Positions 9,601 to 63,361 of a DNA stretch of 64,000 nt are shown in pieces. A program made the position numbers and the translations under genes. Source of the stretch: Eledone cirrhosa (Eukaryota). Under the pieces are notes generated by a model, which saw only the letters and a program-made list of their open reading frames with translations, was not told the origin of the DNA and did not search any database. Positions within the stretch are counted from its first letter, which is position 1. Each line of letters begins with the position of its first letter. The DNA lies in NCBI GenBank assembly GCA_964016885.1, contig OZ024744.1, positions 8,494,001 through 8,558,000 of the forward strand, read 5' to 3'.

Positions 9601-9693
9601 ACCTATCCTTAAGTTCGTCTGGCAGCCCCGATTGGGGTGCGTAAGCTGATATTATTGTGGTAATTGTCTTATTCAGGACTAGTCTGAGTTTAA
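6611..9693 (-). mobile_element. RTE-clade non-LTR retrotransposon, 5'-truncated (RTE copy 1)
   Basis: (CAT)n microsatellite tail at 6611-6630, 3'UTR with GGATGCCCTTCCTA motif and G20 run, single APE-RT ORF. Sequence stops abruptly inside the endonuclease domain at ~9693, where satellite resumes. Confidence 0.95.
6920..9693 (-). CDS. APE endonuclease (partial)-reverse transcriptase polyprotein with embedded PHD-type finger
   Basis: 831-aa track ORF (6920-9415). The frame reads open further upstream to the truncation point (IKLRLVLNKTITTIISAYAPQSG...ADFNGHVG...GTRNEEG). Motifs: DFIL, SQH, WWW, YRGIKL, QFGF, FVDLEKAFD, GVHQGSVLSPLLF, YADD, RRLRWYGHV, GRPK.TW. No native start codon. Confidence 0.92.
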
Positions 9694-24679: not shown

Positions 24680-24779
24680 ATCATCATCATCATCAGGTTT
24701 AGCGTCCGTGTTCCACGCTTGCATTGGTTTGGACGGGGGTTTTCCCACTTGAGGCAAGAGTGGTTGTCTTGCTCACATA

Positions 24780-28000: not shown

Positions 28001-28429
28001 TCTGCTACCATGATTCGTACCCCACCCAACCCATTGTCATTTCCCACCCAGAAAAGCTTATAGCATCGTTCTTTACCCACGATGAATCTAGCCGACCCTC
28101 CTCTCCACCTGGTCTCTTGAATACAACAAACATCGACCTCCTTACGTTCAAGCATTTCTACAACCTCGTTAGAGCGACCCTTTAAGGTGCCTACATTCAT
28201 GGTACCAACTCTGAAGTTTTGGATTGCGTTTGGAGGGTGGGAGCGGTGGAGCGCGGGGGGGGGGGTATGGGGTTATGTTAGCCATCCTGGGCCGAAACAA
28301 GGCGGAGTGCTTGCATTCTCGTCCACGAGGTGAATTTGTCTTTATCTTTGGCATTGTCGCTGAGCGTCCACATTTTTCTCTCTTCAACTCTCCAGAATTC
28401 CGTAGTCCATCCATCATATCGAAAAGCAA
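25082..28429 (-). pseudogene. Frameshifted APE-RT ORF of RTE2 (track ORFs 28169-28429, 26935-28200 and 25082-26842 are one gene)
   Basis: APE motifs NVGTL, IQETRW, SAYAP, GDLNGH, DYIL, SQH; RT motifs GVHQGSVLSPLLF and YADD. Adding 1 nt at 27024/27025 restores ARQ(C)VKENRDIVGEKC, colinear with RTE1. Removing 1 nt in or near the G11 run (28255-28265) joins the N-terminal ORF. Confidence 0.88.
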
Positions 28430-28514
28430 CCAGTTAAGCGATATTATGGGCCTCTGACTTATGATTGGTCCACGTAATAATGGTGGTGCGTGGGGGCGGG
28501 TGGCAGGGATGATG

Positions 28515-31500
28515 GGTTGTTAGCGAGAATGTAAGGTTTAAGATAAGATCGCCGTATTTTGGGCATAATTTAACAATAATCGAAAAAAAAGATTTGTTTT
28601 GTTTAAGAAAATACGATAGAGAAAATGCGGTGATAGGGAAAATATGATTTTTAGAGAAAAAATATGATATAGAATGGTGAAAATATGATATAGTGTGAAA
28701 TTAGGACATAGAATAGTGTTGAATGAATGGAATCGAATGGAGAGAAGAATCGAGAAAAATATTTGAACGTATATATTATAGTAGTGTGGTGGTATATATT
28801 ATAGTAGTGTGGTATATATTATATTAGTGTGGTATATATTATAATAGTGTGGTGTATATTATAGTAGTGTAATGGATATTATAGTAGTAGTGTATATTTT
28901 ATAGTAGTGTGGTGGTGTATATTATAGTAATGTGGTATATATTATAGTAGCGTGTTATATATTATAGTAGTGTGGTGGTAAATATTATAGAAGTGTGGTA
29001 TATATTATAGCAGTCTGGTTTATATTATAGTAATGTGGTATATATTATCGTAGCGTGGTGTATATTATAGTAGTGTGGTGTATGTTTCAGTAGTGTTGTG
29101 GTGTATATTATAGTAGCGAGAATGTAAGGTTTAAGATAAGATCGCCGTATTTTGGGCATAATTTAACAATAATCGAAAATACAAGATTTGTTTTGTTTAA
29201 GAAAATACGATAGAGAAAATGTGGTGATAGCGAAAATATGATTTTTAGAGGAAAATTATGATATAGAATGGTGAAAATATGATATAGTGTGAAATTAGGA
29301 CATAGAATAGTGATTGAATGAATGGATTCGAATGGAGAGAAGAATCGAGAAAAAATATGATATAGAATGGTGAAAATATGATATAGTGTGAAATTAGGAC
29401 ATAGAATAGTGATTGAATGAATGGATTCGAATGGAGAGAAGAATCGAGAAAAATATTTGAACGTATATATTATAGTAGTGTGGTGGTATATATTATAGTA
29501 GTGTGGTATATATTATATTAGTGTGGTGTATATTATAGTAGTGTAATGGATATTATAGTAGTAGTGTATATTTTATAGTAGTGTGGTGGTGTATATTATA
29601 GTAATGTGGTATATATTATAGTAGCGTGGTATATATTATAGTAGTGTGGTGGTAAATATTATAGAAGTGTGGTATATAATATAGCAGTCTGGTTTATATT
29701 ATAGTAATGTGGTATATATTATCGTAGCGTGGTATATATTATAGTAGTATGGTGTATGTTTGAGTAGTGTTGTGGTGTATATTATAGTAGCGAGAATGTA
29801 AGGTTTAAGATAAGATCGCCGTATTTTGGGCATAATTTAACAATAATCGAAAATACAAGATTTGTTTTGTTTAAGAAAATACGATAGAGAAAATGCGGTG
29901 ATAGGGAAAATATGATTTTTAGAGGAAAAATATGATATAGAATGGTGAAAATATAATATAGTGTGAAATTAGGACATAGAATAGTGATTGAATGAATGGA
30001 TTCGAATGGAGAGAAGAATCGAGAAAAAATATGATATAGAATGGTGAAAATATGATAAAGTGTGAAATTAGGACATAGAATAGTGATTGAATGAATGGAT
30101 TCGAATGGAGAGAAGAATCGAGAAAAAATACATAGAATGGTGAAAATATGATATAGTGTGAAATGAGGACATAGAATAGTGATTGAATGAATGGATTCGA
30201 ATGGAGAGAAGAATCGAGAAAAATATTTGAACGTATATATTATAGTAGTGTGGTGGTATATATTATAGTAGTGTGGTATATATTATATTAGTGTGGTATA
30301 TATTATATTAGTGTGGTGTATATTATAGTAGTGTAATGGATATTATAGTAGTAGTGTATATTTTATAATAGTGTGGTGGTGTATATTATAGTAATGTGCT
30401 ATATATTATAGTAGCGTGGTATATATTATAGTAGTGTGGTGGTAAATATTATAGAAGTGTGGTATATATTATAGCAGTCTGGTTTATATTATAGTAATGT
30501 GGTATATATTATCGTAGCGTGGTGTATATTATAGTAGTGTGGTGTATGGTTGAGTAGTGTTGTGGTGTATATTATAGTAGCGAGAATGTAAGGTTTAAGA
30601 TAAGATCGCCGTATTTTGGGCATAATTTAACAATAATCGAAAATACAAGATTTGTTTTGTTTAAGAAAATACGATAGAGAAAATGCGGTGATAGGGAAAA
30701 TATGATTTTTAGAGGAAAAATATGATATAGAATGGTGAAAATATGATATAGTGTGAAATTAGGACATAGAATAGTGATTGAATGAATGGATTCGAATGGA
30801 GAGAAGAATCGAGAAAAATATTTGAACGTATATATTATAGTAGTGTGGTGGTATATATTATAGTAGTGTGGTATATATTATATTAGTGTGGTATATATTA
30901 TATTAGTGTGGTGGTAAATATTATAGAAGTGTGGTATATATTATAGCAGTCTGGTTTATATTATAGTAATGTGGTATATATTATCGTAGCGTGGTGTATA
31001 TTATAGTAGTGTGGTGTATGTTTGAGTAGTGTTGTGGTGTATATTATAGTAGTGTGGTGCATATTATTATAGTGTGGTGTATATTAGAGTAGTGTGCTGT
31101 ATATTATAGTAGTGTGGTACATATTATATTTATGTGGTCTATATTATAGTAGTGTGGTTGTTAGCGAGAATGTAACGTTTAAGATAAGATCGCCGTATTT
31201 TGGGCATAATTTAACAATAATCGAAAATACAAGATTTGTTTTGTTTAAGAAAATACGATAGAGAAAATGCGGTGATAGGGAAAATATGATTTTTAGAGGA
31301 AAAATATGATATAGAATGGTGAAAATATGATATAGTGTGAAATTAGGACATAGAATAGTGATTGAATGAATGGATTCGAATGGAGAGAAGAATCGAGAAA
31401 AAATATGATATAGAATGGTGAAAATATGATAAAGTGTGAAATTAGGACATAGAATAGTGATTGAATGAATGGATTCGAATGGAGAGAAGAATCGAGAATA

Positions 31501-34500
31501 AATACATAGAATGGTGAAAATATGATATAGTGTGAAATGAGGACATAGAATAGTGATTGAATGAATGGATTCGAATGGAGAGAAGAATCGAGAAAAATAT
31601 TTGAACGTATATATTATAGTAGTGTGGTGGTATATATTATAGTAGTGTGGTATATATTATATTAGTGTGGTATATATTATATTAGTGTGGTGTATATTAT
31701 AGTAGTGTAATGGATATTATAGTAGTAGTGTATATTTTATAATAGTGTGGTGGTGTATATTATAGTAATGTGGTATATAGTATAGTAGCGTGGTATATAT
31801 TATAGTAGTGTGGTGGTAAATATTATAGAAGTGTGGTATATATTATAGCAGTCTGGTTTATATTATAGTAATGTGGTATATATTATCGTAGCGTGGTGTA
31901 TATTATAGTAGTGTGGTGTATGGTTGAGTAGTGTTGTGGTGTATATTATAGTAGCGAGAATGTAAGGTTTAAGATAAGATCGCCGTATTTTGGGCATAAT
32001 TTAACAATAATCGAAAATACAAGATTTGTTTTGTTTAAGAAAATACGATAGAGAAAATGTGGTGATAGCGAAAATATGATTTTTAGAGGAAAATTATGAT
32101 ATAGAATGGTGAAAATATGATATAGTGTGAAATTAGGACATAGAATAGTGATTGAATGAATGGATTCGAATGGAGAGAAGAATCGAGAAAAAATATGATA
32201 TAGAATGGTGAAAATATGATATAGTGTGAAATTAGGACATAGAATAGTGATTGAATGAATGGATTCGAATGGAGAGAAGAATCGAGAAAAATATTTGAAC
32301 GTATATATTATAGTAGTGTGGTGGTATATATTATAGTAGTGTGGTATATATTATATTAGTGTGGTGTATATTATAGTAGTGTAATGGATATTATAGTAGT
32401 AGTGTATATTTTATAGTAGTGTGGTGGTGTATATTATAGTAATGTGGTATATATTATAGTAGCGTGGTATATATTATAGTAGTGTGGTGGTAAATATTAT
32501 AGAAGTGTGGTATATAATATAGCAGTCTGTTTTATATTATAGTAATGTGGTATATATTATCGTAGCGTGGTATATATTATAGTAGTATGGTGTATGTTTG
32601 AGTAGTGTTGTGGTGTATATTATAGTAGCGAGAATGTAAGGATTAAGATAAGATCGCCGTGTTTTGGGCATAATTTAACAATAATCGAAAATACAAGATT
32701 TGTTTTGTTTAAGAAAATACGATAGAGAAAATGCGGTGATAGGGAAAATATGATTTTTAGAGGAAAAATATGATATAGAATGGTGAAAATATAATATAGT
32801 GTGAAATTAGGACATAGAATAGTGATTGAATGAATGGATTCGAATGGAGAGAAGAATCGAGAAAAAATATGATATAGAATGGTGAAAATATGATAAAGTG
32901 TGAAATTAGGACATAGAATAGTGATTGAATGAATGGATTCGAATGGAGAGAAGAATCGAGAAAAAATACATAGAATGGTGAAAATATGATATAGTGTGAA
33001 ATGAGGACATAGAATAGTGATTGAATGAATGGATTCGAATGGAGAGAAGAATCGAGAAAAATATTTGAACGTATATATTATAGTAGTGTGGTGGTATATA
33101 TTATAGTAGTGTGGTATATATTATATTAGTGTGGTATATATTATATTAGTGTGGTGTATATTATAGTAGTGTAATGGATATTATAGTAGTAGTGTATATT
33201 TTATAATAGTGTGGTGGTGTATATTATAGTAATGTGGTATATATTATAGTAGCGTGGTATATATTATAGTAGTGTGGTGGTAAATATTATAGAAGTGTGG
33301 TATATATTATAGCAGTCTGGTTTATATTATAGTAATGTGGTATATATTATCGTAGCGTGGTGTATATTATAGTAGTGTGGTGTATGGTTGAGTAGTGTTG
33401 TGGTGTATATTATAGTAGCGAGAATGTAAGGTTTAAGATAAGATCGCCGTATTTTGGGCATAATTTAACAATAATCGAAAATACAAGATTTGTTTTGTTT
33501 AAGAAAATACGATAGAGAAAATGCGGTGATAGGGAAAATATGATTTTTAGAGGAAAAATATGATATAGAATGGTGAAAATATGATATAGTGTGAAATTAG
33601 GACATAGAATAGTGATTGAATGAATGGATTCGAATGGAGAGAAGAATCGAGAAAAATATTTGAACGTATATATTATAGTAGTGTGGTGGTATATATTATA
33701 GTAGTGTGGTATATATTATATTAGTGTGGTATATATTATATTAGTGTGGTGTATATTATAGTAGTGTAATGGATATTATAGTAGTAGTATATATTTTATA
33801 GTAGTGTGGTGGTGTATATTATAGTAATGTGGTATATATTATAGTAGCGTGGTATATATTATAGTAGTGTGGTGGTAAATATTATAGAAGTGTGGTATAT
33901 ATTATAGCAGTCTGGTTTATATTATAGTAATGTGGTATATATTATCGTAGCGTGGTGTATATTATAGTAGTGTGGTGTATGTTTGAGTAGTGTTGTGGTG
34001 TATATTATATTAGCGAGAATGTAAGGTTTAAGATAAGATCGCCGTATTTTGGGCATAATTTAACAATAATCGAAAATACAAGATTTGTTTTGTTTAAGAA
34101 AATACGATAGAGAAAATGCGGTGATAGGGAAAATAGGATTTTTAGAGAAAAAATATGATATAGAATGGTGAAAATATGATATAGTGTGAAATTAGGACAT
34201 AGAATAGTGATTGAATGAATGGATTCGAATGGAGAGAAGAATCGAGAAAAATATTTGAACGTATATATTATAGTAGTGTGGTGGTATATATTATAGTAGT
34301 GTGGTATATATTATATTAGTGTGGTATATATTATATTAGTGTGGTGTATATTATAGTAGTGTAATGGATATTATAGTAGTAGTGTATATTTTATAGTAGT
34401 GCGGTGGTGTATATTATAGTAATGTGGTATATTTTATAGTAGCGTGGTATATATTATAGTAGTGTGGTGGTAAATATTATAGAAGTGTGGTATATATTAT

Positions 34501-37500
34501 AGCAGTCTGGTTTATATTATAGTAATGTGGTATATATTATCGTAGCGTGGTGTATATTATAGTAGTGTGGTGTATGTTTGAGTAGTGTTGTGGTGTATAT
34601 TATAGTAGCGAGAATGTAAGGTTTAAGATAAGATCGCCGTATTTTGGGCATAATTTAACAATAATCGAAAATACAAGATTTGTTTTGTTTAAGAAAATAC
34701 GATAGAGAAAATGCGGTGATAGGGAAAATATGATTTTTAGAGGAAAAATATGATATAGAATGGTGAAAATATGATATAGTGTGAAATTAGGACATAGAAT
34801 AGTGATTGAATGAATGGATTCGAATGGAGAGAAGAATCGAGAAAAATATTTGAACGTATATATTATAGTAGTGTGGTGGTATATATTATAGTAGTGTGGT
34901 ATATATTATATTAGTGTGGTATATATTATATTAGTGTGGTGGTAAATATTATAGAAGTGTGGTATATATTATAGCAGTCTGGTTTATATTATAGTAATGT
35001 GGTATATATTATCGTAGCGTGGTGTATATTATAGTAGTGTGGTGTATGTTTGAGTAGTGTTGTGGTGTATATTATAGTAGTGTGGTGCATATTATTATAG
35101 TGTGGTGTATATTAGAGTAGTGTGCTGTATATTATAGTAGTGTGGTACATATTATATTTATGTGGTCTATATTATAGTAGTGTGGTTGTTAGCGAGAATG
35201 TAAGGTTTAAAATAAGATCGCCGTATTTTGGGCATAATTTAACAATAATCGAAAATACAAGATTTGTTTTGTTTAAGAAAATACGATAGAGAAAATGCGG
35301 TGATAGGGAAAATATGATTTTTAGAGGAAAAATATGATATAGAATGGTGAAAATATGATATAGTGTGAAATTAGGACATAGAATAGTGATTGAATGAATG
35401 GATTCGAATGGAGAGAAGAATCGAGAAAAAATATGATATAGAATGGTGAAAATATGATAAAGTGTGAAATTAGGACATAGAATAGTGATTGAATGAATGG
35501 ATTCGAATGGAGAGAAGAATCGAGAATAAATACATAGAATGGTGAAAATATGATATAGTGTGAAATGAGGACATAGAATAGTGATTGAATGAATGGATTC
35601 GAATGGAGAGAAGAATCGAGAAAAATATTTGAACGTATATATTATAGTAGTGTGGTGGTATATATTATAGTAGTGTGGTATATATTATATTAGTGTGGTA
35701 TATATTATATTAGTGTGGTGTATATTATAGTAGTGTAATGGATATTATAGTAGTAGTGTATATTTTATAATAGTGTGGTGGTGTATATTATAGTAATGTG
35801 GTATATATTATAGTAGCGTGGTATATATTATAGTAGTGTGGTGGTAAATATTATAGAAGTGTGGTATATATTATAGCAGTCTGGTTTATATTATAGTAAT
35901 GTGGTATATATTATCGTAGCGTGGTGTATATTATAGTAGTGTGGTGTATGGTTGAGTAGTGTTGTGGTGTATATTATAGTAGCGAGAATGTAAGGTTTAA
36001 GATAAGATCGCCGTATTTTGGGCATAATTTAACAATAATCGAAAATACAAGATTTGTTTTGTTTAAGAAAATACGATAGAGAAAATGCGGTGATAGGGAA
36101 AATATGATTTTTAGAGGAAAAATATGATATAGAATGGTGAAAATATGATATAGTGTGAAATTAGGACATAGAATAGTGATTGAATGAATGGATTCGAATG
36201 GATAGAAGAATCGAGAAAAAATATGATATAGAATGGTGAAAATATGATATAGTGTGAAATTAGGACATAGAATAGTAATTGAATGAATGGATTCGAATGG
36301 AGAGAAGAATCGAGAAAAAATATGATATAGAATGGTGAAAATATGATATAGTGTGAAATTAGGACATAGAATAGTGATTGAATGAATGGATTCGAATGGA
36401 GAGAAGAATCGAGAAAAAATATGATATAGAATGGTGAAAATATGATATAGTGTGAAATTAGGACATAGAATAGCGATTGAATGAATGGATTCGAATGGAG
36501 AGAAGAATCGAGAAAAATATTTGAACGCATATATTATAGTAGTGTGGTGGTATATATTATAGTAGTGTGGTATATATTATATTAGTGTGGTATATATTAT
36601 ATTAGTGTGGTGTATATTATAGTAGTGTAATGGATATTATAGTAGTAGTGTATATTTTATAGTAGTGTGGTGGTGTATATTATAGTAATGTGGTATATTT
36701 TATAGTAGCGTGGTATATATTATAGTAGTGTGGTGGTAAATATTATAGAAGTGTGGTATATATTATAGCAGTCTGGTTTATATTATAGTAATGTGGTATA
36801 TATTATCGTAGCGTGGTGTATATTATAGTAGTGTGGTGTATGTTTGAGTAGTGTTGTGGTGTATATTATAGTAGCGAGAATGTAAGGTTTAAGATAAGAT
36901 CGCCGTATTTTGGGCGTAATTTAACAATAATCGAAAATACAAGATTTGTTTTGTTTAAGAAAATACGATAGAGAAAATGCGGTGATAGGGAAAATATGAT
37001 TTTTAGAGGAAAAATATGATATAGAATGGTGAAAATATGATATAGTGTGAAATTAGGACATAGAATAGTGATTGAATGAATGGATTCGAATGGAGAGAAG
37101 AATCGAGAAAAATATTTGAACGTATATATTATAGTAGTGTGGTGGTATATATTATAGTAGTGCGGTATATATTATATTAGTGTGGTATATATTATATTAG
37201 TGTGGTGGTAAATATTATAGAAGTGTGGTATATATTATAGCAGTCTGGTTTATATTATAGTAATGTGGTATATATTATCGTAGCGTGGTGTATATTATAG
37301 TAGTGTGGTGTATGTTTGAGTAGTGTTGTGGTGTATATTATAGTAGTGTGGTGCATATTATTATAGTGTGGTGTATATTAGAGTAGTGTGCTGTATATTA
37401 TAGTAGTGTGGTACATATTATATTTATGTGGTCTATATTATAGTAGTGTGGTTGTTAGCGAGAATGTAAGGTTTAAGATAAGATCGCCGTATTTTGAGCA

Positions 37501-40500
37501 TAATTTAACAATAATCGAAAATACAAGATTTGTTTTGTTTAAGAAAATACGATAGAGAAAATGCGGTGATAGGGAAAATATGATTTTTAGAGGAAAAATA
37601 TGATATAGAATGGTGAAAATATGATATAGTGTGAAATTAGGACATAGAATAGTGATTGAATGAATGGATTCGAATGGAGAGAAGAATCGAGAAAAATATT
37701 TGAACGTATATATTATAGTAGTGTGGTGGTATATATTATAGTAGTGTGGTATATATTATATTAGTGTGGTATATATTATATTAGTGTGGTGTATATTATA
37801 GTAGTGCAATGGATATTATAGTAGTAGTGTATATTTTATAGTAGTGTGGTGGTGTATATTATAGTAGCGTGGTATATATTATAGTAGTGTGGTGGTAAAT
37901 ATTATAGAAGTGTGGTATATATTATAGCAGTCTGGTTTATATTATAGTAATGTGGTATATATTATCGAAGCGTGGTGTATATTATAGTAGTGTGGTGTAT
38001 GTTTGAGTAGTGTTGTGGTGTATATTATAGTAGCGAGAATGTAAGGTTTAAGATAAGATCGCCGTATTTTGGGCATAATTTAACAATAATCGAAAATACA
38101 AGATTTGTTTTGTTTAAGAAAATACGATAGAGAAAATGCGGTGATAGGGAAAATATGATTTTTAGAGGAAAAATATGATATAGAATGGTGAAAATATGAT
38201 ATAGTGTGAAATTAGGACATAGAATAGTGATTGAATGAATGGATTCGAATGGAGAGAAGAATCGAGAAAAAATATGATATAGAATGGTGAAAATATGATA
38301 TAGTGTGAAATTAGGACATAGAATAGTGATTGAATGAATGGATTCGAATGGAGAGAAGAATCGAGAAAAAATATGATATAGAATGGTGAAAATATGATAT
38401 AGTGTGAAATTAGGACATAGAATAGTGATTGAATGAATGGATTCGAATGGAGAGAAGAATCGAGAAAAATATTTGAACGTATATATTATAGTAGTGTGGT
38501 GGTATATATTATAGTAGTGTGGTATATATTATATTAGTGTGGTATATATTATATTAGTGTGGTGTATATTATAGTAGTGTAATGGATATTATAGTAGTAG
38601 TGTATATTTTATAGTAGTGTGGTGGTGTATATTATAGTAATGTGGTATATATTATAGTAGCGTGGTTTATATTATAGTAGTGTGGTGGTAAATATTATAG
38701 AAGTGTGGTATATATTATAGCAGTCTGGTTTATATTATAGTAATGTGGTATATATTATCGTAGCGTGGTGTATATTATAGTAGTGTGGTGTATGTTTGAG
38801 TAGTGTTGTGGTGTATATTATAGTAGTGTGGTGCATATTATTATAGTGTGGTGTATATTAGAGTAGTGTGCTGTATATTATAGTAGTGTGGTACATATTA
38901 TATTTATGTGGTCTATATTATAGTAGTGTGGTTGTTAGCGAGAATGTAAGGTTTAAAATAAGATCGCCGTATTTTGGGCATAATTTAACAATAATCGAAA
39001 ATACAAGATTTGTTTTGTTTAAGAAAATACGATAGAGAAAATGCGGTGATAGGGAAAATATGATTTTTAGAGGAAAAATATGATATAGAATGGTGAAAAT
39101 ATGATATAGTGTGAAATTAGGACATAGAATAGTGATTGAATGAATGGATTCGAATGGAGAGAAGAATCGAGAAAAAATATGATATAGAATGGTGAAAATA
39201 TGATAAAGTGTGAAATTAGGACATAGAATAGTGATTGAATGAATGGATTCGAATGGAGAGAAGAATCGAGAATAAATACATAGAATGGTGAAAATATGAT
39301 ATAGTGTGAAATGAGGACATAGAATAGTGATTGAATGAATGGATTCGAATGGAGAGAAGAATCGAGAAAAATATTTGAACGTATATATTATAGTAGTGTG
39401 GTGGTATATATTATAGTAGTGTGGTATATATTATATTAGTGTGGTATATATTATATTAGTGTGGTGTATATTATAGTAGTGTAATGGATATTATAGTAGT
39501 AGTGTATATTTTATAATAGTGTGGTGGTGTATATTATAGTAATGTGGTATATAGTATAGTAGCGTGGTATATATTATAGTAGTGTGGTGGTAAATATTAT
39601 AGAAGTGTGGTATATATTATAGCAGTCTGGTTTATATTATAGTAATGTGGTATATATTATCGTAGCGTGGTGTATATTATAGTAGTGTGGTGTATGGTTG
39701 AGTAGTGTTGTGGTGTATATTATAGTAGCGAGAATGTAAGGTTTAAGATAAGATCGCCGTATTTTGGGCATAATTTAACAATAATCGAAAATACAAGATT
39801 TGTTTTGTTTAAGAAAATACGATAGAGAAAATGCGGTGATAGGGAAAATATGATTTTTAGAGGAAAAATATGATATAGAATGATGAAAATATGATATAGT
39901 GTGAAATTAGGACATAGAATAGTGATTGAATGAATGGATTCGAATGGATAGAAGAATCGAGAAAAAATATGATATAGAATGGTGAAAATATGATATAGTG
40001 TGAAATTAGGACATAGAATAGTAATTGAATGAATGGATTCGAATGGAGAGAAGAATCGAGAAAAAATATGATATAGAATGGTGAAAATATGATATAGTGT
40101 GAAATTAGGACATAGAATAGTGATTGAATGAATGGATTCGAATGGAGAGAAGAATCGAGAAAAAATATGATATAGAATGGTGAAAATATGATATAGTGTG
40201 AAATTAGGACATAGAATAGCGATTGAATGAATGGATTCGAATGGAGAGAAGAATCGAGAAAAATATTTGAACGCATATATTATAGTAGTGTGGTGGTATA
40301 TATTATAGTAGTGTGGTATATATTATATTAGTGTGGTATATATTATATTAGTGTGGTGTATATTATAGTAGTGTAATGGATATTATAGTAGTAGTGTATA
40401 TTTTATAGTAGTGTGGTGGTGTATATTATAGTAATGTGGTATATTTTATAGTAGCGTGGTATATATTATAGTAGTGTGGTGGTAAATATTATAGAAGTGT

Positions 40501-49500: not shown

Positions 49501-52500
49501 GTGGTATATATTATCGTAGCGTGGTGTATATTATAGTAGTGTGGTGTATGTTTGAGTAGTGTTGTGGTGTATATTATAGTAGCGAGAATGTAAGGTTTAA
49601 GATAAGTTCGCCGTATTTTGGGCATAATTTAACAATAATCGAAAATACAAGATTTGTTTTGTTTAAGAAAATACGATAGAGGAAATGCGGTGATAGCGAA
49701 AATATGATTCTTACAGGAAAAATATGATATAGAATGGTGAAAATATGATATTATGTGAAATTAGGACATAGAATAGTGATTGAATGAATGGATTCGAATG
49801 GAGAGAAGAATCGAGAAAAATATTTGAACGTATATATTATAGTAGTGTGGTGGTATATATTATAGTAGTGTGGTATATATTATATTAGTGTGGTATATAT
49901 TATATTAGTGTGGTGTATATTATAGTAGTGTAATGGATATTATAGTAGTAGTATATATTTTATAGTATTGAGGTGGTGTATATTATAGTAATGTGGTATA
50001 TATTATAGTAGCGTGGTATATATTATAGTAGTGTGGTGCTAAATATTATAGAAGTGTGGTATATATTATAGCAGTCTGGTTTATATTATAGTAATGTGGT
50101 ATATATTATCGTAGCGTGGTGTATGTTATAGTAGTGTGGTGTATGTTTGAGTAGTGTTGTGGTGTATATTATAGTAGCGAGAATGTAAGGTTTAAGATAA
50201 GATCGCCGTATTTTGGGCATAATTTAACAATAATCGAAAATACAAGATTTGTTTTGTTTAAGAAAATACGATAGAGAAAATGCGGTGATAGGGAAAATAT
50301 GATTTTTAGAGGAAAAATATGATATAGAATGGTGAAAATATGATATAGTGTGAAATTAGGACATAGAATAGTGATTGAATGAATGGATTCGAATGGAGAG
50401 AAGAATCGAGAAAAAATATGATATAGAATGGTGAAAATATGATATAGTGTGAAATTAGGACATAGAATAGTGATTGAATGAATGGATTCGAATGGAGAGA
50501 AGAATCGAGAAAAAATATGATATAGAATGGTGAAAATATGATATAGTGTGAAATTAGGACATAGAATAGCGATTGAATGAATGGATTCGAATGGAGAGAA
50601 GAATCGAGAAAAATATTTGAACGCATATATTATAGTAGTGTGGTGGTATATATTATAGTAGTGTGGTATATATTATATTAGTGTGGTATATATTATATTA
50701 GTGTGGTGTATATTATAGTAGTGTAATGGATATTATAGTAGTAGTGTATATTTTATAGTAGTGTGGTGGTGTATATTATAGTAATGTGGTATATATTATA
50801 GTAGCGTGGTTTATATTATAGTAGTGTGGTGGTAAATATTATAGAAGTGTGGTATATATTATAGCAGTCTGGTTTATATTATAGTAATGTGGTATATATT
50901 ATCGTAGCGTGGTGTATATTATAGTAGTGTGGTGTATGTTTGAGTAGTGTTGTGGTGTATATTATAGTAGTGTGGTGCATATTATGATAGTGTGGTGTAT
51001 ATTAGAGTAGTGTGCTGTATATTATAGTAGTGTGGTGCATATTATATTTATGTGGTCTATATTATAGTAGTGTAGTTGTTAGCGAGAATGTAAGGTTTAA
51101 GATAAGATCGCCGTATTTTGGGAATAATTTAACAATAATCGAAAATACAAGATTTGTTTTGTTTAAGAAAATACGATAGAGAAAATGCGGTGATAGGGAA
51201 AATAGGATTTTTAGAGAAAAAATATGATATAGAATGGTGAAAATATGATATAGTGTGAAATTAGGACATAGAATAGTGATTGAATGAATGGATTCGAATG
51301 GAGAGAAGAATCGAGAAAAATATTTGAACGTATATATTATAGTAGTGTGGTGGTATATATTATAGCAGTGTGGTATATATTATATTAGTGTGGTATATAT
51401 TATATTAGTGTGGTGTATATTATAGTAGTGTAATGGATATTATAGTAGTAGTGTATATTTTATAGTAGTGTGGTGGTGTATATTATAGTAATGTGGTATA
51501 TTTTATAGTAGCGTGGTATATATTATAGTAGTGTGGTGGTAAATATTATAGAAGTGTGGTATATATTATAGCAGTCTGGTTTATATTATAGTAATGTGGT
51601 ATATATTATCGTAGCGTGGTGTATATTATAGTAGTGTGGTGTATGTTTGAGTAGTGTTGTGGTGTATATTATAGTAGCGAGAATGTAAGGTTTAAGATAA
51701 GATCGCCGTATTTTGGGCATAATTTAACAATAATCGAAAATACAAGATTTGTTTTGTTTAAGAAAATACGATAGAGAAAATGCGGTGATAGGGAAAATAT
51801 GATTTTTAGAGGAAAAATATGATATAGAATGGTGAAAATATGATATAGTGTGAAATTAGGACATAGAATAGTGATTGAATGAATGGATTCGAATGGAGAG
51901 AAGAATCGAGAAAAATATTTGAACGTATATATTATAGTAGTGTGGTGGTATATATTATAGTAGTGTGGTATATATTATATTAGTGTGGTATATATTATAT
52001 TAGTGTGGTGGTAAATATTATAGAAGTGTGGTATATATTATAGCAGTCTGGTTTATATTATAGTAATGTGGTATATATTATCGTAGCGTGGTGTATATTA
52101 TAGTAGTGTGGTGTATGTTTGAGTAGTGTTGTGGTGTATATTATAGTAGTGTGGTGCATATTATTATAGTGTGGTGTATATTAGAGTAGTGTGCTGTATA
52201 TTATAGTAGTGTGGTGCATATTATATTTATGTGGTCTATATTATAGTAGTGTGGTTGTTAGCGAGAATGTAAGGTTTAAGATAAGATCGCCGTATTTTGG
52301 GCATAATTTAACAATAATCGAAAATACAAGATTTGTTTTGTTTAAGAAAATACGATAGAGAAAATGCGGTGATAGGGAAAATAGGATTTTTAGAGGAAAA
52401 ATATGATATAGAATGGTGAAAATATGATATAGTGTGAAATTAGGACATAGAATAGTGATTGAATGAATGGATTCGAATGGAGAGAAGAATCGAGAAAAAT

Positions 52501-55500
52501 ATTTGAACGTATATATTATAGTAGTGTGGTGGTATATATTATAGTAGTGTGGTATATATTATATTAGTGTGGTATATATTATATTAGTGTGGTGTATATT
52601 ATAGTAGTGTAATTGATATTATAGTAGTAGTGTATATTTTATAGTAGTGTGGTGGTGTATAGTATAGTAGCGTGGTATATATTATAGTAGTGTGGTGGTA
52701 AATATTATAGAAGTGTGGTATATATTATAGCAGTCTGGTTTATATTATAGTAATGTGGTATATATTATCGAAGCGTGGTGTATATTATAGTAGTGTGGTG
52801 TATGTATGAGTAGTGTTGTGGTGTATATTATAGTAGCGAGAATGTAAGGTTTAAGATAAGATCGCCGTATTTTGGGCATAATTTAACAATAATCGAAAAT
52901 ACAAGATTTGTTTTGTTTAAGAAAATACGATAGAGAAAATCCGGTGATAGGGAAAATATGATTTTTAGAGGAAAAATATGATATAGAATGGTGAAAATAT
53001 GATATAGTGTGAAATTAGGACATAGAATAGTGATTGAATGAATGGATTCGAATGGAGAGAAGAATCGAGAAAAAATATGATATAGAATGGTGAAAATATG
53101 ATATAGTGTGAAATTAGGACATAGAATAGTGATTGAATGAATGGATTCGAATGGAGAGAAGAATCGAGAAAAATATTTGAACGTATATATTATAGTAGTG
53201 TGGTGGTATATATTATAGTAGTGTGGTATATATTATATTAGTGTGGTATATATTATATTAGTGTGGTGTATATTATAGTAGTGTAATGGATATTATAGTA
53301 GTAGTGTATATTTTATAGTAGTGTGGTGGTGTATATTATAGTAATGTGGTATATATTATAGTAGCGTGTTATATATTATAGTAGTGTGGTGGTAAATATT
53401 ATAGAAGTGTGGTATATATTATAGCAGTCTGGTTTATATTATAGTAATGTGGTATATATTATCGTAGCGTGGTGTATATTATAGTAGTGTGGTGTATGTT
53501 TGAGTAGTGTTGTGGTGTATATTATAGTAGCGAGAATGTAAGGTTTAAGATAAGATCGCCGTATTTTGGGCATAATTTAACAATAATCGAAAATACAAGA
53601 TTTGTTTTGTTTAAGAAAATACTATAGAGAAAATGCGGTGATAGCGAAAATATGATTTTTACAGGAAAAATATGATATAGAATGGTGAAAATATGATATT
53701 ATGTGAAATTAGGACATAGAATAGTGATTGAATGAATGGATTCGAATGGAGAGAAGAATCGAGAAAAATATTTGAACGCATATATTATAGTAGTGTGGTG
53801 GTATATATTATAGTAGTGTGGTATATATTATATTAGTGTGGTATATATTATATTAGTGTGGTGTATATTATAGTAGTGTAATGGATATTATAGTAGTAGT
53901 GTATAGTTTATAGTAGTGTGGTGGTGTATATTATAGTAATGTGGTATATATTATAGTAGCGTGGTATATATTATAGTAGTGTGGTGGTAAATATTATAGA
54001 AGTGTGGTATATATTATATCAGTCTGGTTTATATTATAGTAATGTGGTATATATTATCGTAGCGTGGTATATATTATAGTATTGTGGTGTATGTTTGAGT
54101 AGTGTTGTGGTGTATATTATAGTAGTGTGGTGCATATTATAATAGTGTGGTGTATATTAGAGTAGTGCGCTGTATATTATAGTAGTGTGGTACATATTAT
54201 ATTTATGTGGTCTATATTGTAGTAGTGTGGTTGTTAGCGAGAATGTAAGGTTTAAGATAAGATCGCCGTATTTTGGGCATAATTTAACAATAATCGAAAA
54301 TACAAGATTTGTTTTGTTTAAGAAATACGATGGAGAATATGCGGTGATAGGGAAAATATGATTTTTAGAGAAAAAAATATGATATATAATGGTGAAAATA
54401 TGATATAGTGTGAAATTAGGACATAGAATAGTGATTGAATGAATGGATTCGAATGGAGAGAAGAAATCGAGAAAAAATATGATATAGAATGGTGAAAATA
54501 TGATATAGTGTGAAATTAGGACATAGAATAGTGATTGAATGAATGGATTCGAATGGAGAGAAGAATCGAGAAAAAATATGATATAGAATGGTGAAAATAT
54601 GATATAGTGTGAAATTAGGACATAGAATAGTGATTGAATGAATGGATTCGAATGGAGAGAAGAATCGAGAAAAATATTTGAACGTATATATTATAGTAGT
54701 GTGGTGGTATATATTATAGTAGTGTGGTATATATTATATTAGTGTGGTATATATTATATTAGTGTGGTGTATATTATAGTAGTGTAATGGATATTATAGT
54801 AGTAGTGTATATTTTATAGTAGTGTGGTGGTGTATATTATAGTAATGTGGTATATATTATAGTAGCGTGGTTTATAGTATAGTAGTGTGGTGGTAAATAT
54901 TATAGAAGTGTGGTATAAATTATAGCAGTCTGGTTTATATTATAGTAATGTGGTATATATTATCGTAGCGTGGTGTATATTATAGTAGTGTGGTGTATGT
55001 TTGAGTAGTGTTGTGGTGTATATTATAGTAGCGAGAATGTAAGTTTTAAGATAAGATCGCCGTATTTTGGGCATAATTTAATAACAATTGAAAATACAGG
55101 ATTTGTTTTGTTTAAGAAAATACGATAGAGAAAATGCGGTGATAGGGAAAATATGATTTTTAGAGGAAAAATATGATATAGAATGGTGAAAATATGATAT
55201 AGTGTGAAATTAGGACATAGAATAGTGATTGAATGAATGGATTCGAATGGAGAGAAGAATCGAGAAAAATATTTGAACGTATATATTATAGTAGTGTGGT
55301 GGTATATATTATAGTAGTGTGGTATATATTATATTAGTGTGGTATATATTATATTAGTGTGGTGGTATATGTTATAGTAGTGTGGTATATATTATATTAG
55401 TGTGGTGTATATTATAGTAGTGTAATGGATATTATAGTAGTAGTGTATATTTTATAGTAGTGTGGTGGTGTATATTATAGTAATGTGGTATATATTATAG

Positions 55501-58500
55501 TAGCGTGGTATATATTATAGTAGTGTGGTGGTAAATATTATAGAAGTGTGGTATATATTATAGCAGTCTGGTTTATATTATAGTAATGTGGTATATATTA
55601 TCGTAGCGTGGTGTATATTATAGTAGTGTGGTGTATGTTTGAGTAGTGTTGTGGTGTATATTATAGTAGCGAGAATGTAAGGTTTAAGATAAGATCGCCG
55701 TATTTTGGGCATAATTTAACAATAATCGAAAATACAAGATTTGTTTTGTTTAAGAAAATACGATAGAGAAAATGCGGTGATAGGGAAAATATGATTTTTA
55801 GAGGAATAATATGATATAGAATGGTGAAAATATGATATAGTGTGAAATTAGGACATAGAATAGTGATTGAATGAATGGATTCGAATGGAGAGAAGAATCG
55901 AGGAAAAATATGATATAGAATGGTGATAATATGATATAGTGTGAAATTAGGACATAGAATAGTGATTGAATGAATGGATTCGAATGGAGAGAAGAATCGA
56001 GGAGAAATATGATATAGAATGGTGAAAATATGATATAGTGTGAAATTAGGACATAGAATAGTGATTGAATGAATGGATTCGAATGGAGAGAAGAATCGAG
56101 AAAAATATTTGAACGTATATATTATAGTAGTGTGGTGGTATATATTATAGTAGTGTGGTATATATTATATTAGTGTGGTATATATTATATTAGTGTGGTG
56201 TATATTATATTAGTGTGGTGTATATTATAGTGGTGTAATGGATATTATAGTAGTAGTGTATATTTTATAGTAGTGTGGTGGTGTATATTATAGTAATGTG
56301 GTATATATTATAGTAGCGTGGTATATATTATAGTAGTGTGGTGGTAAATATTATAGAAGTGTGGTATATATTATAGCAGTCTGGTTTATATTATAGTAAT
56401 ATGGTATATATTATCTTAGCGTGGTGTATATTATAGTAGTGTGGTGTATGTTTGAGTAGTGTTGTGGTGTATATTATAGTAGTGTGGTGCATATTATAAT
56501 AGTGTGGTGTATATTAGAGTAGTGTGCTGTATATTATAGTAGTGTGGTACATATTATATTTATGTTGTCTATATTATAGTAGTGTGGTTGTTAGCGAGAA
56601 TGTAAGGTTTAAAATAAGATCGCCGTATGTTGGGCATAATTTAACAATAATCGAAAATACAAGATTTGTTTTGTTTAAGAAATACGATAGAGAAAATGCG
56701 GTGATAGGGAAAATATGATTTTTAGAGAAAAAAATATGATATAGAATGGTGTAAGTATGATATTGTGTGAAATTAGGACATAGAATAGTGATTGAATGAA
56801 TGGATTCGAATGGAGAGAAGAATCGAGAAAAAATATGATATAGAATGGTGAAAATATGATATAGTGTGAAATTAGGACATAGAATCGTGATTGAATGAAT
56901 GGATTCGAATGGAGAGAAGAATCGAGAAAAAATATGATATAGAATGGTGAAAATATGATATAGTGTGAAATTAGGACATAGAATAGTGATTGAATGAATG
57001 GATTCGAATGGAGAGAACAATCGAGAAAAAATATGATATAGAATGGTGAAAATATGATATAGTGTGAAATTAGGACATAGAATAGCGATTGAATGAATGG
57101 ATTCGAATGGAGAGAAGAATCGAGAAAAATATTTGAACGTATATATTATAGTAGTGTGGTGGTATATATTATAGTAGTGTGGTATATATTATATTAGTGT
57201 GGTATATATTATATTAGTGTGGTGTATATTATAGTAGTGTAATGGATATTATAGTAGTAGTGTATATTTTATAGTAGTGTGGTGGTGTATATTATAGTAA
57301 TGTGGTATATATTATAGTAGCGTGGTATATATTATAGTAGTGTGGTGGTAAATATTATAGAAGTGTGGTATATATTATAGCAGTCTGGTTTATATTATAG
57401 TAATGTGGTATATATTGTCGTAGCGTGGTGTATATTATAGTAGTGTGGTGTATGTTTGAGTAGTGTTGTAGTGTATATTATAGTAGCGAGAATGTAAGGT
57501 TTAAGATAAGATCGCCGTATTTTGGGCATAATTTAACAATAATCGAAAATACAAGATTTGTTTTGTTTAAGAAAATACGATAGAGAAAATGCGGTGATAG
57601 GGAAAATATGATTTTTAGAGGAAAAATATGATATAGAATGGTGAAAATATGATATAGTGTGAAATTAGGACATAGAATAGTGATTGAATGAATGGATTCG
57701 AATGGAGAGAAGAATCGAGAAAAATATTTGAACGTATATATTATAGTAGTGTGGTGGTATATATTATAGTAGTGTGGTATATATTATATTAGTGTGGTAT
57801 ATATTATATTAGTGTGGTGTATATTATAGTAGTGTAATGGATATTATAGTAGTAGTGTATATTTTATAGTAGTGTGGTGGTGTATATTATAGTAATGTGG
57901 TATATATTATAGTAGCGTGGTATATATTATAGTAGTGTGGTGGTAAATATTATAGAAGTGTGGTATATATTATAGCAGTCTGGTTTATATTATAGTAATG
58001 TGGTATATATTATCGTAGCGTGGTGTATATTATAGTAGTGTGGTGTATGTTTGAGTAGTGTTGTTGTGTATATTATAGTAGTGTGGTGCATATTATAATA
58101 GTGTGGTGTATATTAGAGTAGTGTGCTGTATATTATAGTAGTGTGGTACATATTATATTTATGTTGTCTATATTATAGTAGTGTGATTGTTAGCGAGAAT
58201 GTAAGGTTTAAGATAAGATCGCCGTATTTTGGGCATAATTTAACAATAATCGAAAATACAAGATTTGTTTTGTTTAAGAAATACGATAGAGAAAATGCGG
58301 TGATAGGGAAAATATGATTTTTAGAGAAAAAAATATGATATAGAATGGTGAAAATATGATATTGTGTGAAATTAGGACATAGAATAGTGATTGAATGAAT
58401 GGATTCGAATGGAGAGAAGAATCGAGAAAAAATATGATATAGAATGGTGAAAATATGATATAGTCTGAAATTAGGACATAGAATAGTGATTGAATGAATG

Positions 58501-60040
58501 GATTCGAATGGAGAGAAGAATCGAGAAAAAATATGATATAGAATGGTGAAAATATGATATAGTGTGAAATTAGGACATAGAATAGCGATTGAATGAATGG
58601 ATTCGAATGGAGAGAAGAATCGAGAAAAATATTTGAACGTATATATTATAGTAGTGTGGTGGTATATATTATAGTAGTGTGGTATATATTATATTAGTGT
58701 GGTATATATTATATTAGTGTGGTGTATATTATAGTAGTGTGATGGATATTATAGTAGTAGTGTATATTTTATAGTAGTGTGGTGGTGTATATTATAGTAA
58801 TGTGGTATATATTATAGTAGCGTGGTTTATATTATAGTAGTGTGGTGGTAAATATTATAGAAGTGTGGTATATATTATAGCAGTCTGGTTTATATTATAG
58901 TAATGTGGTATATATTATCGTAGCGTGGTGTATATTATAGTAGTGTGGTGTATGTTTGAGTAGTGTTGTGGTTTATATTATAGTAGTGTGGTGCATATTA
59001 TAATAGTGTGGTGTATATTAGAGTAGTGTGCTGTATATTATAGTAGTGTGGTACATATTATATTTATGTGGTCTATATTATAGTAGTGTGGTTGTTAGCG
59101 AGAATGTAAGGTTTAAGATAAGATCGCCGTATTTTGGGCATAATTTAACAATAATCGAAAATACAAGATTTGTTTTGTTTAAGAAAATACGATAGAGAAA
59201 ATGCGGTGATAGGGAAAATATGATTTTTAGAGGAAAAATATGATATAGAATGGTGAAAATATGATATAGTGTGAAATTAGGACATAGAATAGTGATTGAA
59301 TGAATGGATTCGAATGGAGAGAAGAATCAAGAAAAATATTTGAACGTATATATTATAGTAGTGTGGTGGTATATATTATAGTAGTGTGGTATATATTATA
59401 TTATTGTGGTATATATTATATTAGTGTGGTGTATATTATAGTAGTGTAATGGATATTATAGTAGTAGTGTATATTTTATAGTAGTGTGGTGGTGTATATT
59501 ATAGTAATGTGGTTTATATTATAGTAGCGTGGTATATATTATAGTAGTGTGGTGGTAAATATTATAGAAGTGTGGTATATATTATAGCAGTCTTGTTTAT
59601 ATTATAGTAATGTGGTATATATTATCGTAGCGTGGTGTATATTATAGTAGTGTGGTGTATGTTTGAGTAGTGTTGTGGTGTATATTATAGTAGCGAGAAT
59701 GTAAGGTTTAAGATAAGATCGCCGTATTTTGGGCATAATTTAACAATAATCGAAAATACAAGATTTGTTTTGTTTAAGAAAATACGATAGAGAAAATGCG
59801 GTGATAGGGAAAATATGATTTTTAGAGAAAAAATATGATATAGAATGGTGAAAATATGATATAGTGTGAAATTAGGACATAGAATAGTGATTGAATGAAT
59901 GGATTCGAATGGAGAGAAGAATCGAGAAAAATATGATATAGAATGGTGAAAATATGATATAGTGTGAAATTAGGACATAGAATAGTAATTGAATGAATGG
60001 ATTCGAATGGAGAGAAGAATCGAGAAAAATATTTGAACGT
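28515..60040. repeat. Composite higher-order tandem array, ~46 units: ~140-bp head + (99 bp)x1-4 + captured 20-mer satellite block
   Basis: Head GCGAGAATGTAAGGTTTAAGATAAGATCGCC... counted by eye 46 times (28523, 29116, 29790 ... 59098, 59693). The 99-bp repeats nearly always end in TATTTGAACG(T/C), followed by the same ordered series of satellite variants. Units are near-identical. Confidence 0.96.
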
Positions 60041-60470
60041 TACTTTATAGCGCAGGAACAGCCATCCCAGAAATAGCGAGTTGGCGATTGTGATTAATTT
60101 TGGTAGGGTTTATCTTATATGTATAGAGAGGGAGGTGTGTGGGGGGGGGGGGGGGGGGCAGGAACCAGCATGATGTATGGGTAGGGGGTAGAAGATGGGA
60201 TGGAGCAGAGGTTAAGAGTTTAAATAGGTACTAGAAGTTTTGCGTAGAACTTAGCAAGTTTAACAAAATATATTTAAAGGAATATATAATAGTGATTTGT
60301 TTTTGTTATGAAAATACGACAGAATAAGAAAATATGACAGAATTAAGCGAGAATGTAAGGTTTAAGATAAGATCGCCGTATTTTGGGCATAAATTAACAA
60401 TAAACGAAAATACAAGATTTGTTACGTTTAAGAAAATACGATAGAGAAAATATGATTTTTAGAGAAAAAA
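59693..60470. other. Un-deleted 'parent' of the array's non-satellite module (unclassified element with direct repeats)
   Basis: The last unit continues past GAACGT into ~300 bp of unique sequence (G18 run at 60141-60158). A diverged second copy of the head follows at 60347-60470. Confidence 0.7.
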
Positions 60471-63361
60471 TATATATCTTATAGTAGTGTGGTATACATT
60501 ATATATTTAATAAATACTGTGGTGGTATATAAATTATATTTATTATAGTAGTGTGGTATAAATTATAGTAGGGTGGTGTATCTTATAGTAGTGTAGTATA
60601 TATTATAGTAGCGTGGTAGTATATATTACACCAGTGTGGTACATATTATAGTAGAGTGGTATATATTATATTAGTGTGGTGTATATTATAGTAGGCTAAT
60701 GGATATTATAGTAATGTGGTATATATTATAGTAGTGTGGTATATATTATATTAGTGTTGTGGTATATATTATAGAAGTATGGCATATATTATAGAAGTCT
60801 GGTGTATATTATAGTAGAGTGGTATATATTATAGTAGTATGGTGTATATTATAGTAGTGTGATATATATTATAGTAGTTTGGTGTATATTATAGTAGTCT
60901 GGTGTATATTATTGTAGTTTGCTGTATATTATAATAGTGTGGTGGTATATATTATAGTAGTGTGGTATATATTATATTAGTGTGGTATATATTATATTAG
61001 TGTGGTGTATATTATAGTAGTGTAATGGATATTATAGTAGTAGTGTATATTTTATAGTAGTGTGGTGGTGTATATTATAGTAATGTGGTATATATTATAG
61101 TAGCGTGGTATATATTATAGTAGTGTGATGGTAAATATTATAGAAGTGTGGTATATATTATAGCAGTCTGGTTTATATTATAGTAATGTGGTATATATTA
61201 TCGTAGCGTGGTGTATATTATAGTAGTGTGGTGTATGTTTGAGTAGTGTTGTGGTGTATATTATAGTAGTGTGGTGCATATTATAATAGTGTGGTGTATA
61301 TTAAAGTAGTGTGCTGTATATTATAGTAGTGTGGTACATATTATATTTATGTGGTCTATATTATAGTAGTGTGGTATATATTATAGTAGTGCAGTATATA
61401 TTATAGTAGGGTGGTGTATGTTATATTAGTGTGGTGGTGTATATTATACTAGTGTGGTATATAACATAGTAGTGTGGTGTATATTATAGTAGTGTGGTAT
61501 ATATTATATTAGTGTGGTGTATATTATAGTAGGTTAATGGATATTATATTAGTGTTGTATATATTATAGTAGTGTGGTGGTGTATATTATAGTAATGTGG
61601 TATATATTATAGTAGTGTGGTATATATTATAGTAGTGTGGGTATATTATAGTAGTGTGGGTATATTATAGTAGTGTGGTGTATATTATAGTATTGTGGTG
61701 TAGAGTATCATATTGTGGTGTATATTATAGTAGTGTGGTATATATTATAGTATTGTGGTATATATTAGAGTAGTGTGGTGTATGTTATAGTAGTGTGGTG
61801 GTGTATATTATAGTAGTGTAGCGTATATTAGAGTAGTGTGGTATATATTACAGTAGTGTGGAATATATTATAGTAGGGTGGTTGTATATATTATAGTAGT
61901 GTGGCATATATTATAGTAATGTGGTGTATATTATATTAATTTTGTGTATATTATAGTAGTGTGGTGTATGTTATAGTAGTGCGGTGGTGTATATTATAGT
62001 AGTGTGGTGTATATCATAGTAGTGTAGCGTATATTATAGTAGTGTGGTATATATTACAGTAGTGTGGTGTATATTATTGTAGTGAGGTATATGTTGCACT
62101 AGTGTGGTGTATATTATAGTAGTATGCTGTATATTATAGTAGTGTGGTGTATATTACAGTAGTGTGGTATACATTATAGTGGCGTTGTATTTATTATAGT
62201 AGTGTGCTGTATATTATAGTAGTGTGACATATATTATAATAGTGTGGTGTATATTATAGTAGTTTGCTATATATTATAGTGGGCGGGTGCTATATACTAT
62301 AGTAGTGTGGTGTATATTATTGTAGTGTGGTGGTATATATTATAGTAGTGTGGTATATATTATAGTAGTGTGGTAAATATTATATTAGTGTGTTATATAT
62401 TATTGTAGTGTGGTATATCTTATAGTACTGTGTTATATATTATAGTAATGTGGTGGTGTATATTATAGTAGTTTTGTGTAGATTATAGTAGTGTGGTGTA
62501 TATTATATTAGTGTGGTATATATTATAGTAGGGTAATGGATATTATAGTAGTGTGGTATATATTATAGTAGTGTGGTATATATTATAGTAGTGTGGTGGT
62601 ATATATTATAGAAGTGTGGTTTATATTATAACGGTCTGGTGTATATTATAGTAGTGTGGTATATATTATAGTAGTGTGGTGTATATTATAGTAGTGTGAT
62701 ATATATTATAATAGTGTGGTATATATTATAGTAGTGCGGTATATATTATATTAGTGCGGTATATATTATTGTAGTGTGGTGTATGTTATATTAGTGTGGT
62801 GCTGTATATTATAGTAGTGTGTTGTATATTATAGTAGTGTGGTGTATATTATAGTAGTGTGGTATATATCACAGTAGTGTGGTGTATACTATAGTAGTGT
62901 GGTATATATTACACTAGTGTGGTGTATATTATAGTAGTGTGCTGTATATTATAGTAGTGTGGCATATATTATCGTAGTCCGATATATATTATAGTGGTGT
63001 GGTGTATATTATATTAGTGTGGTAAATATTATATTAATTTGTCATATATTATAGTAGTGTGGTATATATTATCATAGTGTGGTACATTTTATAGCACTGT
63101 GTTATATATTATAGTAGTGTGGTTGTATATATTATAGTAGTGTTGTGTATACTATAGTAGTGTAGCGTATATTATAGTAATGTGGTATATATTATGTTAG
63201 GGTGGTTGTATATATTATAGTAATGTGGTGTATATCATAGTAGTGTGGTATGTATTTGTGTAGTGTGGTATATATTATAGTAGTGTTGTGTATATTATAA
63301 TAGTGTGGTGTATATTTTATAGTAGTGTGGTACATATTATAGTAGTGTGGTATATATTATA
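60471..63361. repeat. 20-bp minisatellite (block 5), including the donor block of the composite array at ~60924-61375
   Basis: Same monomer. 60924-61375 carries the exact variant order used in the array units (GTAATGGAT, TAGCAGTCTGGTTT, ATCGTAGCG, GTTTGAGTAG, ATATTTATGTGGTCT). Confidence 0.95.

What the first reader, a model, noticed from the sequence alone, without database searches (positions are those of the whole stretch)
28515..61375. Birth of a new composite satellite with both parent sequences preserved next to it
Seen: each of ~46 units joins a non-satellite module to one specific ~450-bp run of 20-mer variants. The module exists in longer form once (59693-60470), and the satellite run exists uninterrupted once (~60924-61375). 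A unit equals this locus with ~60041-60923 removed (junction GAACGT|ATATATT instead of GAACGT|TACTTT) and 61375 joined back to the module start (GTGTGGT|TGTTAGCGAG). Inference: a ~0.7-kb chimeric segment, formed by duplication plus deletion or as an excised circle, was amplified to ~31.5 kb recently by rolling-circle, break-induced replication or unequal exchange. This is a readable record of a satellite capturing foreign DNA and changing its monomer.
Basis: partly seen in the sequence, partly recalled or inferred. Interest (0 to 1): 0.75.

Follow-up and report, generated by a model that had tools for sequence, protein, structure and literature searches.

The report
LINE front end captures flanking satellite
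A 31,000-base tandem array sits inside the front end of one young jumping gene, and its 45 units join a piece of that front end to satellite DNA matching one stretch 450 bases beyond the insertion, so it likely grew on the spot soon after the element landed.

Summary
The array is real: 45 units (28518-59692), each a module plus satellite matching 60925-61375 at 98.9% (next best 87%). The module is not anonymous foreign DNA. It is the 5' UTR monomer of the RTE-like LINE that starts at 24680 and ends at 60473, so the array lies inside one LINE copy. There are two satellite-to-module junctions (15 and 30 units), not one, and only 8 of 45 units keep the whole run. The composite junction occurs only here. 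LINE body (0.61%), units (0.68%) and parent (4 of 682) are about equally diverged, so growth likely began near insertion. Block duplications and mosaic units argue against one rolling-circle burst. The family grows 5' arrays elsewhere (6 of 100 listed copies reach 4 kb or more). This scan had noted that on other DNA. What this locus adds: captured target DNA rules out arrival in RNA, and 8 of 16 independent duplication junctions re-enter beside one G-quadruplex-type tract. The polymerase involved is inferred. New variant of a known kind.

The parts
1..24681 (.). Host 20-bp satellite, left flank (target of the LINE), with other inserts
24680..24695 (-). (CAT)n 3' tail of the LINE
25180..28417 (-). 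Single LINE ORF (endonuclease, reverse transcriptase, PHD-like finger); broken here by a 1-bp loss at 27024; intact 1078-aa ORF in another copy
28418..28517 (-). Proximal 5' UTR; ends in a G-rich tract on the + strand (about 28490-28517) whose right edge is the duplication re-entry hotspot; this copy has a private G>C at 28504
28518..59692 (.). Composite array, 45 units: UTR module (head, 1-4 x 99 bp, tail) plus 148-472 bp of captured satellite
34932..42922 (.). Recent block duplication, offset 3746 bp, 5 mismatches in 4245 bp
46366..53406 (.). Recent block duplication, offset 3947 bp, 4 mismatches in 3094 bp
59693..60040 (-). Last module, continuous with the rest of the UTR monomer
60041..60345 (-). 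U part of the native UTR monomer, absent from all units (replaced by satellite)
60346..60473 (-). Truncated second monomer, the LINE's 5' end
60474..60923 (.). Right-flank satellite skipped by the units
60924..61375 (.). Source satellite run copied into the units; unique in the genome
61376..63344 (.). Rest of the host satellite, to its end

Best explanation
The array is a tandem expansion inside the 5' UTR of one young RTE-like LINE, and its units contain satellite DNA matching one run of the flank, so it likely arose in place, at or soon after insertion, by two microhomology-guided template switches followed by repeated unequal exchange. Shown: layout ORF-UTR-[module+satellite]45-module-U-head-satellite; the source run; 1-3 bp shared at the joints; star-like units with later block duplications. 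Inferred: a polymerase making the minus strand stalled at the G-rich tract beside the module head, jumped back to 61375 (shared GGT), copied 451 bp, and skipped 884 bp back into the module. That made two module copies around one satellite run. Unequal exchange or break-induced copying between the copies then multiplied them, an early 112-bp deletion (shared TAG) made the second joint, and 3-4-kb blocks were duplicated later.
For: Other copies carry ORF-UTR-head-99mer-tail-U-head in one run; 169 exact UTR-head joints in the genome. Composite joint: 38 of 38 exact hits lie in this window. Source-run marker: 16 of 16 hits here, 15 units plus the parent. Parent-private bases at 61128 and 61304 are in no unit. 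Divergence: LINE body 19 of 3101 = 0.61% (CI 0.37-0.96), units 172 of 25347 = 0.68%, parent 4 of 682. One private base is fixed in the modules (45 copies, 0 elsewhere). Blocks differ by 0.12-0.22%. T60C, 61094T and 61110T occur in all four pairwise combinations, so units are mosaic or mutated in parallel. 8 of 16 independent duplication joints re-enter at -13 to -3 of the head; P 8e-7 to 2e-5 after correcting for window choice, and microhomology supply there is ordinary. L1 insertions with sequence templated from nearby genomic DNA are reported (PMC11702581, passages).
Against: Two other G-rich tracts of like score (G4Hunter 2.6 and 2.0 against 2.28) have no re-entry joints, so a G-quadruplex alone does not explain the hotspot; a GC/AT boundary or bound protein fits too. 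Age agreement is loose, 'private' LINE changes include unsampled donor changes, and arrays may mutate faster. In 4 other arrays (C1:366.5, C2:355.2, C4:173.2, C5:3.5 Mb) monomers have 0 private alleles while bodies have 0.10-0.32%, which fits later growth. No two-copy intermediate survives, so one double switch cannot be told from duplication then deletion. The unit tree has weak deep support. No clear target-site duplication.
Confidence: 0.7

Rival explanations
1. Same local origin, but the capture was a much later replication accident unrelated to insertion, and the units look old because arrays mutate fast.
For: One private base was fixed before expansion. Four other arrays look younger than their LINE bodies. 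Parent clock rests on 3-4 changes.
Against: The single-copy parent segments, not part of the array, carry 4 of 682 private changes, as expected for the LINE's full age. Only 1 shared change in about 700 bp precedes the expansion, against about 4 per unit after it.
Confidence: 0.15
2. A module-plus-satellite circle was excised, copied in one rolling-circle burst and re-inserted.
For: Star-like tree with 58 singleton variants; all but two units share one module-to-satellite joint.
Against: Two satellite-to-module joints are spread over many lineages, sub-repeat number varies 1-4, there are nested block duplications and mosaic units. A circle could have aided the early phase but cannot give the whole array.
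Confidence: 0.1
3. The array was carried in the LINE's RNA from a donor, as monomer stacks of this family can be.
For: Short stacks share variants between loci; arrays at C3:295.4 and C1:175.2 Mb have only singleton variants at the age of their bodies.
Against: Units contain a satellite run found once in the genome, 450 bp beyond this insertion and continuous with its flanks.
Confidence: 0.03
4. Assembly artefact.
For: No long reads were available; the best short-read runs may be from the assembled animal.
Against: Units carry 58 singleton changes. Contigs over the source run have depth 78-209 against 5-24 for flanking satellite contigs; the depth-209 contig carries the unit allele at 61128, and a contig spans the first joint.
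Confidence: 0.02

Closest known systems
Mouse L1Md monomeric 5' UTRs (PMC6454616; abstract and passages)
   Same: LINE with tandem monomers at the 5' end, number varying between copies, 5' monomer truncated; duplication mechanism unclear there too.
   Different: Here stacks reach 23-31 kb, monomer boundaries differ by locus, and this one contains target-site DNA. Promoter activity of these monomers is untested.
Ogre 3' UTR satellites of Lathyrus sativus (PMC7004042; passages)
   Same: Short UTR tandem repeats of a retrotransposon expand in place at many copies, all stages visible.
   Different: LTR element, 3' UTR, plant; the passages read describe no capture of flank into the monomer.
Sobo of wild potato (original not held; known from a passage of PMC3648361)
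   Same: Single-locus, composite monomer of retrotransposon, satellite and genomic DNA.
   Different: 4.7-kb monomer, about 360 kb, LTR-derived. Here the host element and both source pieces are in place and the joints are read at base level.
Maize CRM1TR and CRM4TR (PMC3648361; abstract and passages)
   Same: Independent arrays from one element region, with one monomer end at the same site; short-homology deletions proposed.
   Different: Two arrays, entirely element-derived, LTR element. Here 8 independent joints map to one 11-bp stretch.
Templated insertions at L1 integration sites (PMC11702581; passages; its Fig. S10 not seen)
   Same: Nearby genomic DNA copied into the insertion.
   Different: Single small events in cultured cells, no amplification described in the passages read.

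Membership tests
RTE-clade LINE | Single ORF with APE endonuclease and reverse transcriptase | tested here: met
   Exo_endo_phos and RVT_1; one 1078-aa ORF in an intact copy
RTE-clade LINE | Short tandem-repeat 3' tail | tested here: met
   (CAT)n at 24680-24695; feature named in PMC9115989 passage
RTE-clade LINE | No RNase H domain | tested here: met
   No such Pfam hit at E 0.001 in 3 of 3 frames; the feature is recalled
RTE-clade LINE | RT phylogeny inside the RTE clade | not tested
   Relatives found (best 53% identity) were almost all unnamed; no tree with named references, so 'RTE-like'
RTE-clade LINE | Target-site duplication | tested here: inconclusive
   Best candidate has 2 mismatches in 23 bp inside satellite
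L1Md-type monomer 5' UTR | Tandem monomers at the 5' end, variable in number | tested here: met
   108 copies parsed: median 539 bp, 23 at 1 kb or more
L1Md-type monomer 5' UTR | Each monomer is a promoter | not testable with these tools
   No RNA holder listed
Retrotransposon-derived satellite DNA | Head-to-tail array of tens of kb whose monomer derives from an element | tested here: met
   31.2 kb, module 95-100% to family
Retrotransposon-derived satellite DNA | Spread to other loci | tested here: not met
   38 of 38 joint hits in this window; it is a single-locus array
Ribozyme-headed LINE | Self-cleaving ribozyme in the 5' UTR | tested here: not met
   No ribozyme family among 94 Rfam matches at E up to 5 in 3 copies; divergent forms could be missed

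The most novel reading that the evidence does not exclude
Integration of this LINE itself seeds satellites: second-strand synthesis on the fresh cDNA stalls at a G-quadruplex in the 5' UTR and slips back, making head-to-tail duplications with one fixed end. The same slip renews the element's promoter monomers and, when it lands in the target DNA, founds a new composite satellite at the moment of insertion.
Probability: 0.3. Interest if true: 0.7.

Novelty: new variant of a known kind. Interest (0 to 1): 0.45.

Why it matters
How the first tandem copy of a satellite forms, and how LINEs renew monomeric 5' ends, are both open. This locus keeps the host element, both source pieces and all joints, and its captured flank rules out arrival in RNA. 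The family gives over a hundred natural replicates with a shared breakpoint, so a stall-and-slip mechanism can be tested directly. The general idea, element-derived satellites, is well known, which caps the score.

Tried and rejected
Ribozyme at the hotspot: no Rfam ribozyme match. Splicing as the cause of the 884-bp skip: the skipped piece ends in CT, not AG. Target-site duplication or a paralogous empty site: none clear. Three RAD runs of other samples: module reads are almost all family allele and the source run is nearly uncovered; reduced representation, so no verdict on presence. No RNA holder listed. One run of another organism has a 164-bp contig matching the module at low depth; not interpreted. 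Left-right age polarity of units: weak (rho 0.33, P 0.03), not used. Protein search gave no usable names. Literature: (listings) showed no title or abstract on this family or on flank capture by a LINE 5' array; only 2 papers held all cephalopod-satellite terms, neither relevant. The library lacks most subscription papers. Host taxon was not tested; scan notes call the genome octopus-like.

Full report
Observation. The window is G000:C28:8494001-8558000 of a 3.0-Gb genome. It holds 46 module heads between 28523 and 59693 and one more at 60347: 45 units, 333-1004 bp, 31,170 bp in all. Each has a head, 1-4 copies of a 99-bp sub-repeat, a tail and a satellite part. A full-length satellite part aligns to 60925-61374 at 98.9%; the next best stretch in the window plus 10 kb upstream is 86.6%. 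A 33-base marker of that run has 16 hits in the genome with up to one mismatch: 15 units and the parent. The module-to-satellite joint has 38 exact hits, all in this window. Two points need correcting. There are two satellite-to-module joints: 61375 to 28518, sharing GGT, in 15 of 45 units, and 61269 to 28524, sharing TAG, in 30 of 45. Only 8 units keep the whole run.

What the module is. To the left lies a LINE on the minus strand: (CAT)n tail at 24680, endonuclease, reverse transcriptase and PHD-like domains. An intact copy elsewhere has one 1078-aa ORF whose start maps to 28417; this copy has lost one base at 27024. Searches with 59693-60470 and 28100-28520 return the same loci, where ORF, proximal UTR, head, sub-repeat, tail, U and a second head run without a break. 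The UTR-head joint has 169 exact hits. The module is therefore the LINE's 5' UTR monomer. The element spans 24680-60473, and the array sits inside its UTR. In each unit the 305-bp U part of the native monomer is replaced by satellite from the right flank.

The family does this elsewhere. I examined all 100 listed of the 169 copies, plus other hits. Of 108 copies parsed in one run, the median 5' extension was 539 bp and 23 reached 1 kb; that set is slightly enriched for arrays. Among the 100 listed copies, 6 reach 4 kb or more: C1:175.2 (4.1 kb), C1:366.5 (8.3), C3:287.2 (7.9), C4:173.2 (4.5), C4:234.6 (23) and C5:3.5 Mb (at least 8, across a gap). Outside that list are C21:31.5 (24.6 kb) and C1:365.7 Mb (at least 26.5 kb, beside a gap). 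Monomers differ by locus. Earlier notes of this scan report 5' arrays of this kind on other DNA; I reached the reading before opening them. Flank DNA inside the repeat was seen at only 1 other of 119 copies parsed: a two-copy fold-back on the small contig C137.

Age. The LINE body has 19 private changes in 3101 bp (0.61%). Units differ from their inferred ancestor at 172 of 25,347 sites (0.68%; 43 units, two rearranged ones and 16 indel-shifted columns left out), and the parent segments at 4 of 682. One private base is fixed in the modules. The tree is star-like and the parent is not nested: its private bases at 61128 and 61304 occur in no unit; two more differences lie in the joint zone and are ambiguous. 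Growth therefore began early in the copy's life, with wide limits. In other arrays the picture is mixed: two match their bodies, four have no private alleles although their bodies do.

Growth. Blocks of 1.8-4.2 kb were duplicated recently (0.12-0.22% apart). Variants recombine between units or arose twice. With two joints and variable sub-repeat number, this fits many rounds of unequal exchange, not one rolling-circle burst.

Breakpoint hotspot. Distinct duplication joints were listed from the parsed copies. I collapsed point variants of inherited joints. I left out joints at -2 to +5, which could be deletion products of the native dimer (they lie in the same zone, so this is conservative), and one homopolymer change. 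Of 16 remaining, 8 re-enter at -13 to -3 of the head, including this array's first joint at -8. The chance is 8e-7 to 2e-5 after allowing for picking the window afterwards, and microhomology supply there is 4.7-5.5% of the total. The zone borders a + strand tract of four G runs with one-base loops, present in most copies. A polymerase making the minus strand would meet it from this side, as would second-strand synthesis on the LINE's cDNA (inference). Against this, two other G-rich tracts show no such joints, and the site is also a GC-to-AT boundary. G-quadruplex barriers are linked to rearrangements in a review (PMC12708500, passages). A ribozyme was not found.

Reality check. Short-read contigs of one sample, possibly the assembled animal, show depth 78-209 on the source run against 5-24 on flanking satellite, and one spans the first joint. 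RAD runs of other samples gave no verdict.

Comparison and verdict. It works like L1Md monomer stacks and Ogre UTR satellites, and resembles Sobo in being composite and single-locus. A review lists LINE UTRs among satellite sources (PMC12628747, passages). Searches found no account of this family or of flank capture by a LINE 5' array. It is a new variant of a known kind: a clean, datable case with one testable extra, the hotspot. Interest 0.45.

Noticed in passing
window 6611-9697: A second, 5'-truncated RTE-like LINE of another family (74.5% DNA identity) with a 928-aa open frame, same orientation, in the same satellite.
   Followed up: partly
window 5966-6146 and about 11396-11990: Two related SINE-like inserts, 84% alike, in opposite orientation.
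   Followed up: no
window 63955-63989: Perfect 14-bp GC-rich inverted repeat with a 7-base loop just past the end of the satellite.
   Followed up: no
G000:C28, about 45 kb left of the window: The 20-bp satellite runs at least 50 kb further left and switches strand there.
   Followed up: no
L034, G000:C137:10404-11756: LINE 5' end with AT-rich flank, an inverted UTR piece and a second module copy: a fold-back capture of flank, on a small contig, possibly an assembly error.
   Followed up: partly
L094, G000:C2:284120117-284122878: Two copies of this LINE with 5' ends facing each other 2.7 kb apart.
   Followed up: no
G000:C4:234615000-234638000: 23-kb UTR array with a regular higher-order pattern on a LINE body with 0 private changes in 3077 bp: very young.
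   Followed up: partly
family-wide, monomer position +275 to +299: 15 of 103 5' ends fall in this 25-bp bin, the fullest one; possibly a transcription start.
   Followed up: no
window 24181-24656 and 22894-23369: Local 95% duplicate within the host satellite, offset 1287 bp.
   Followed up: no
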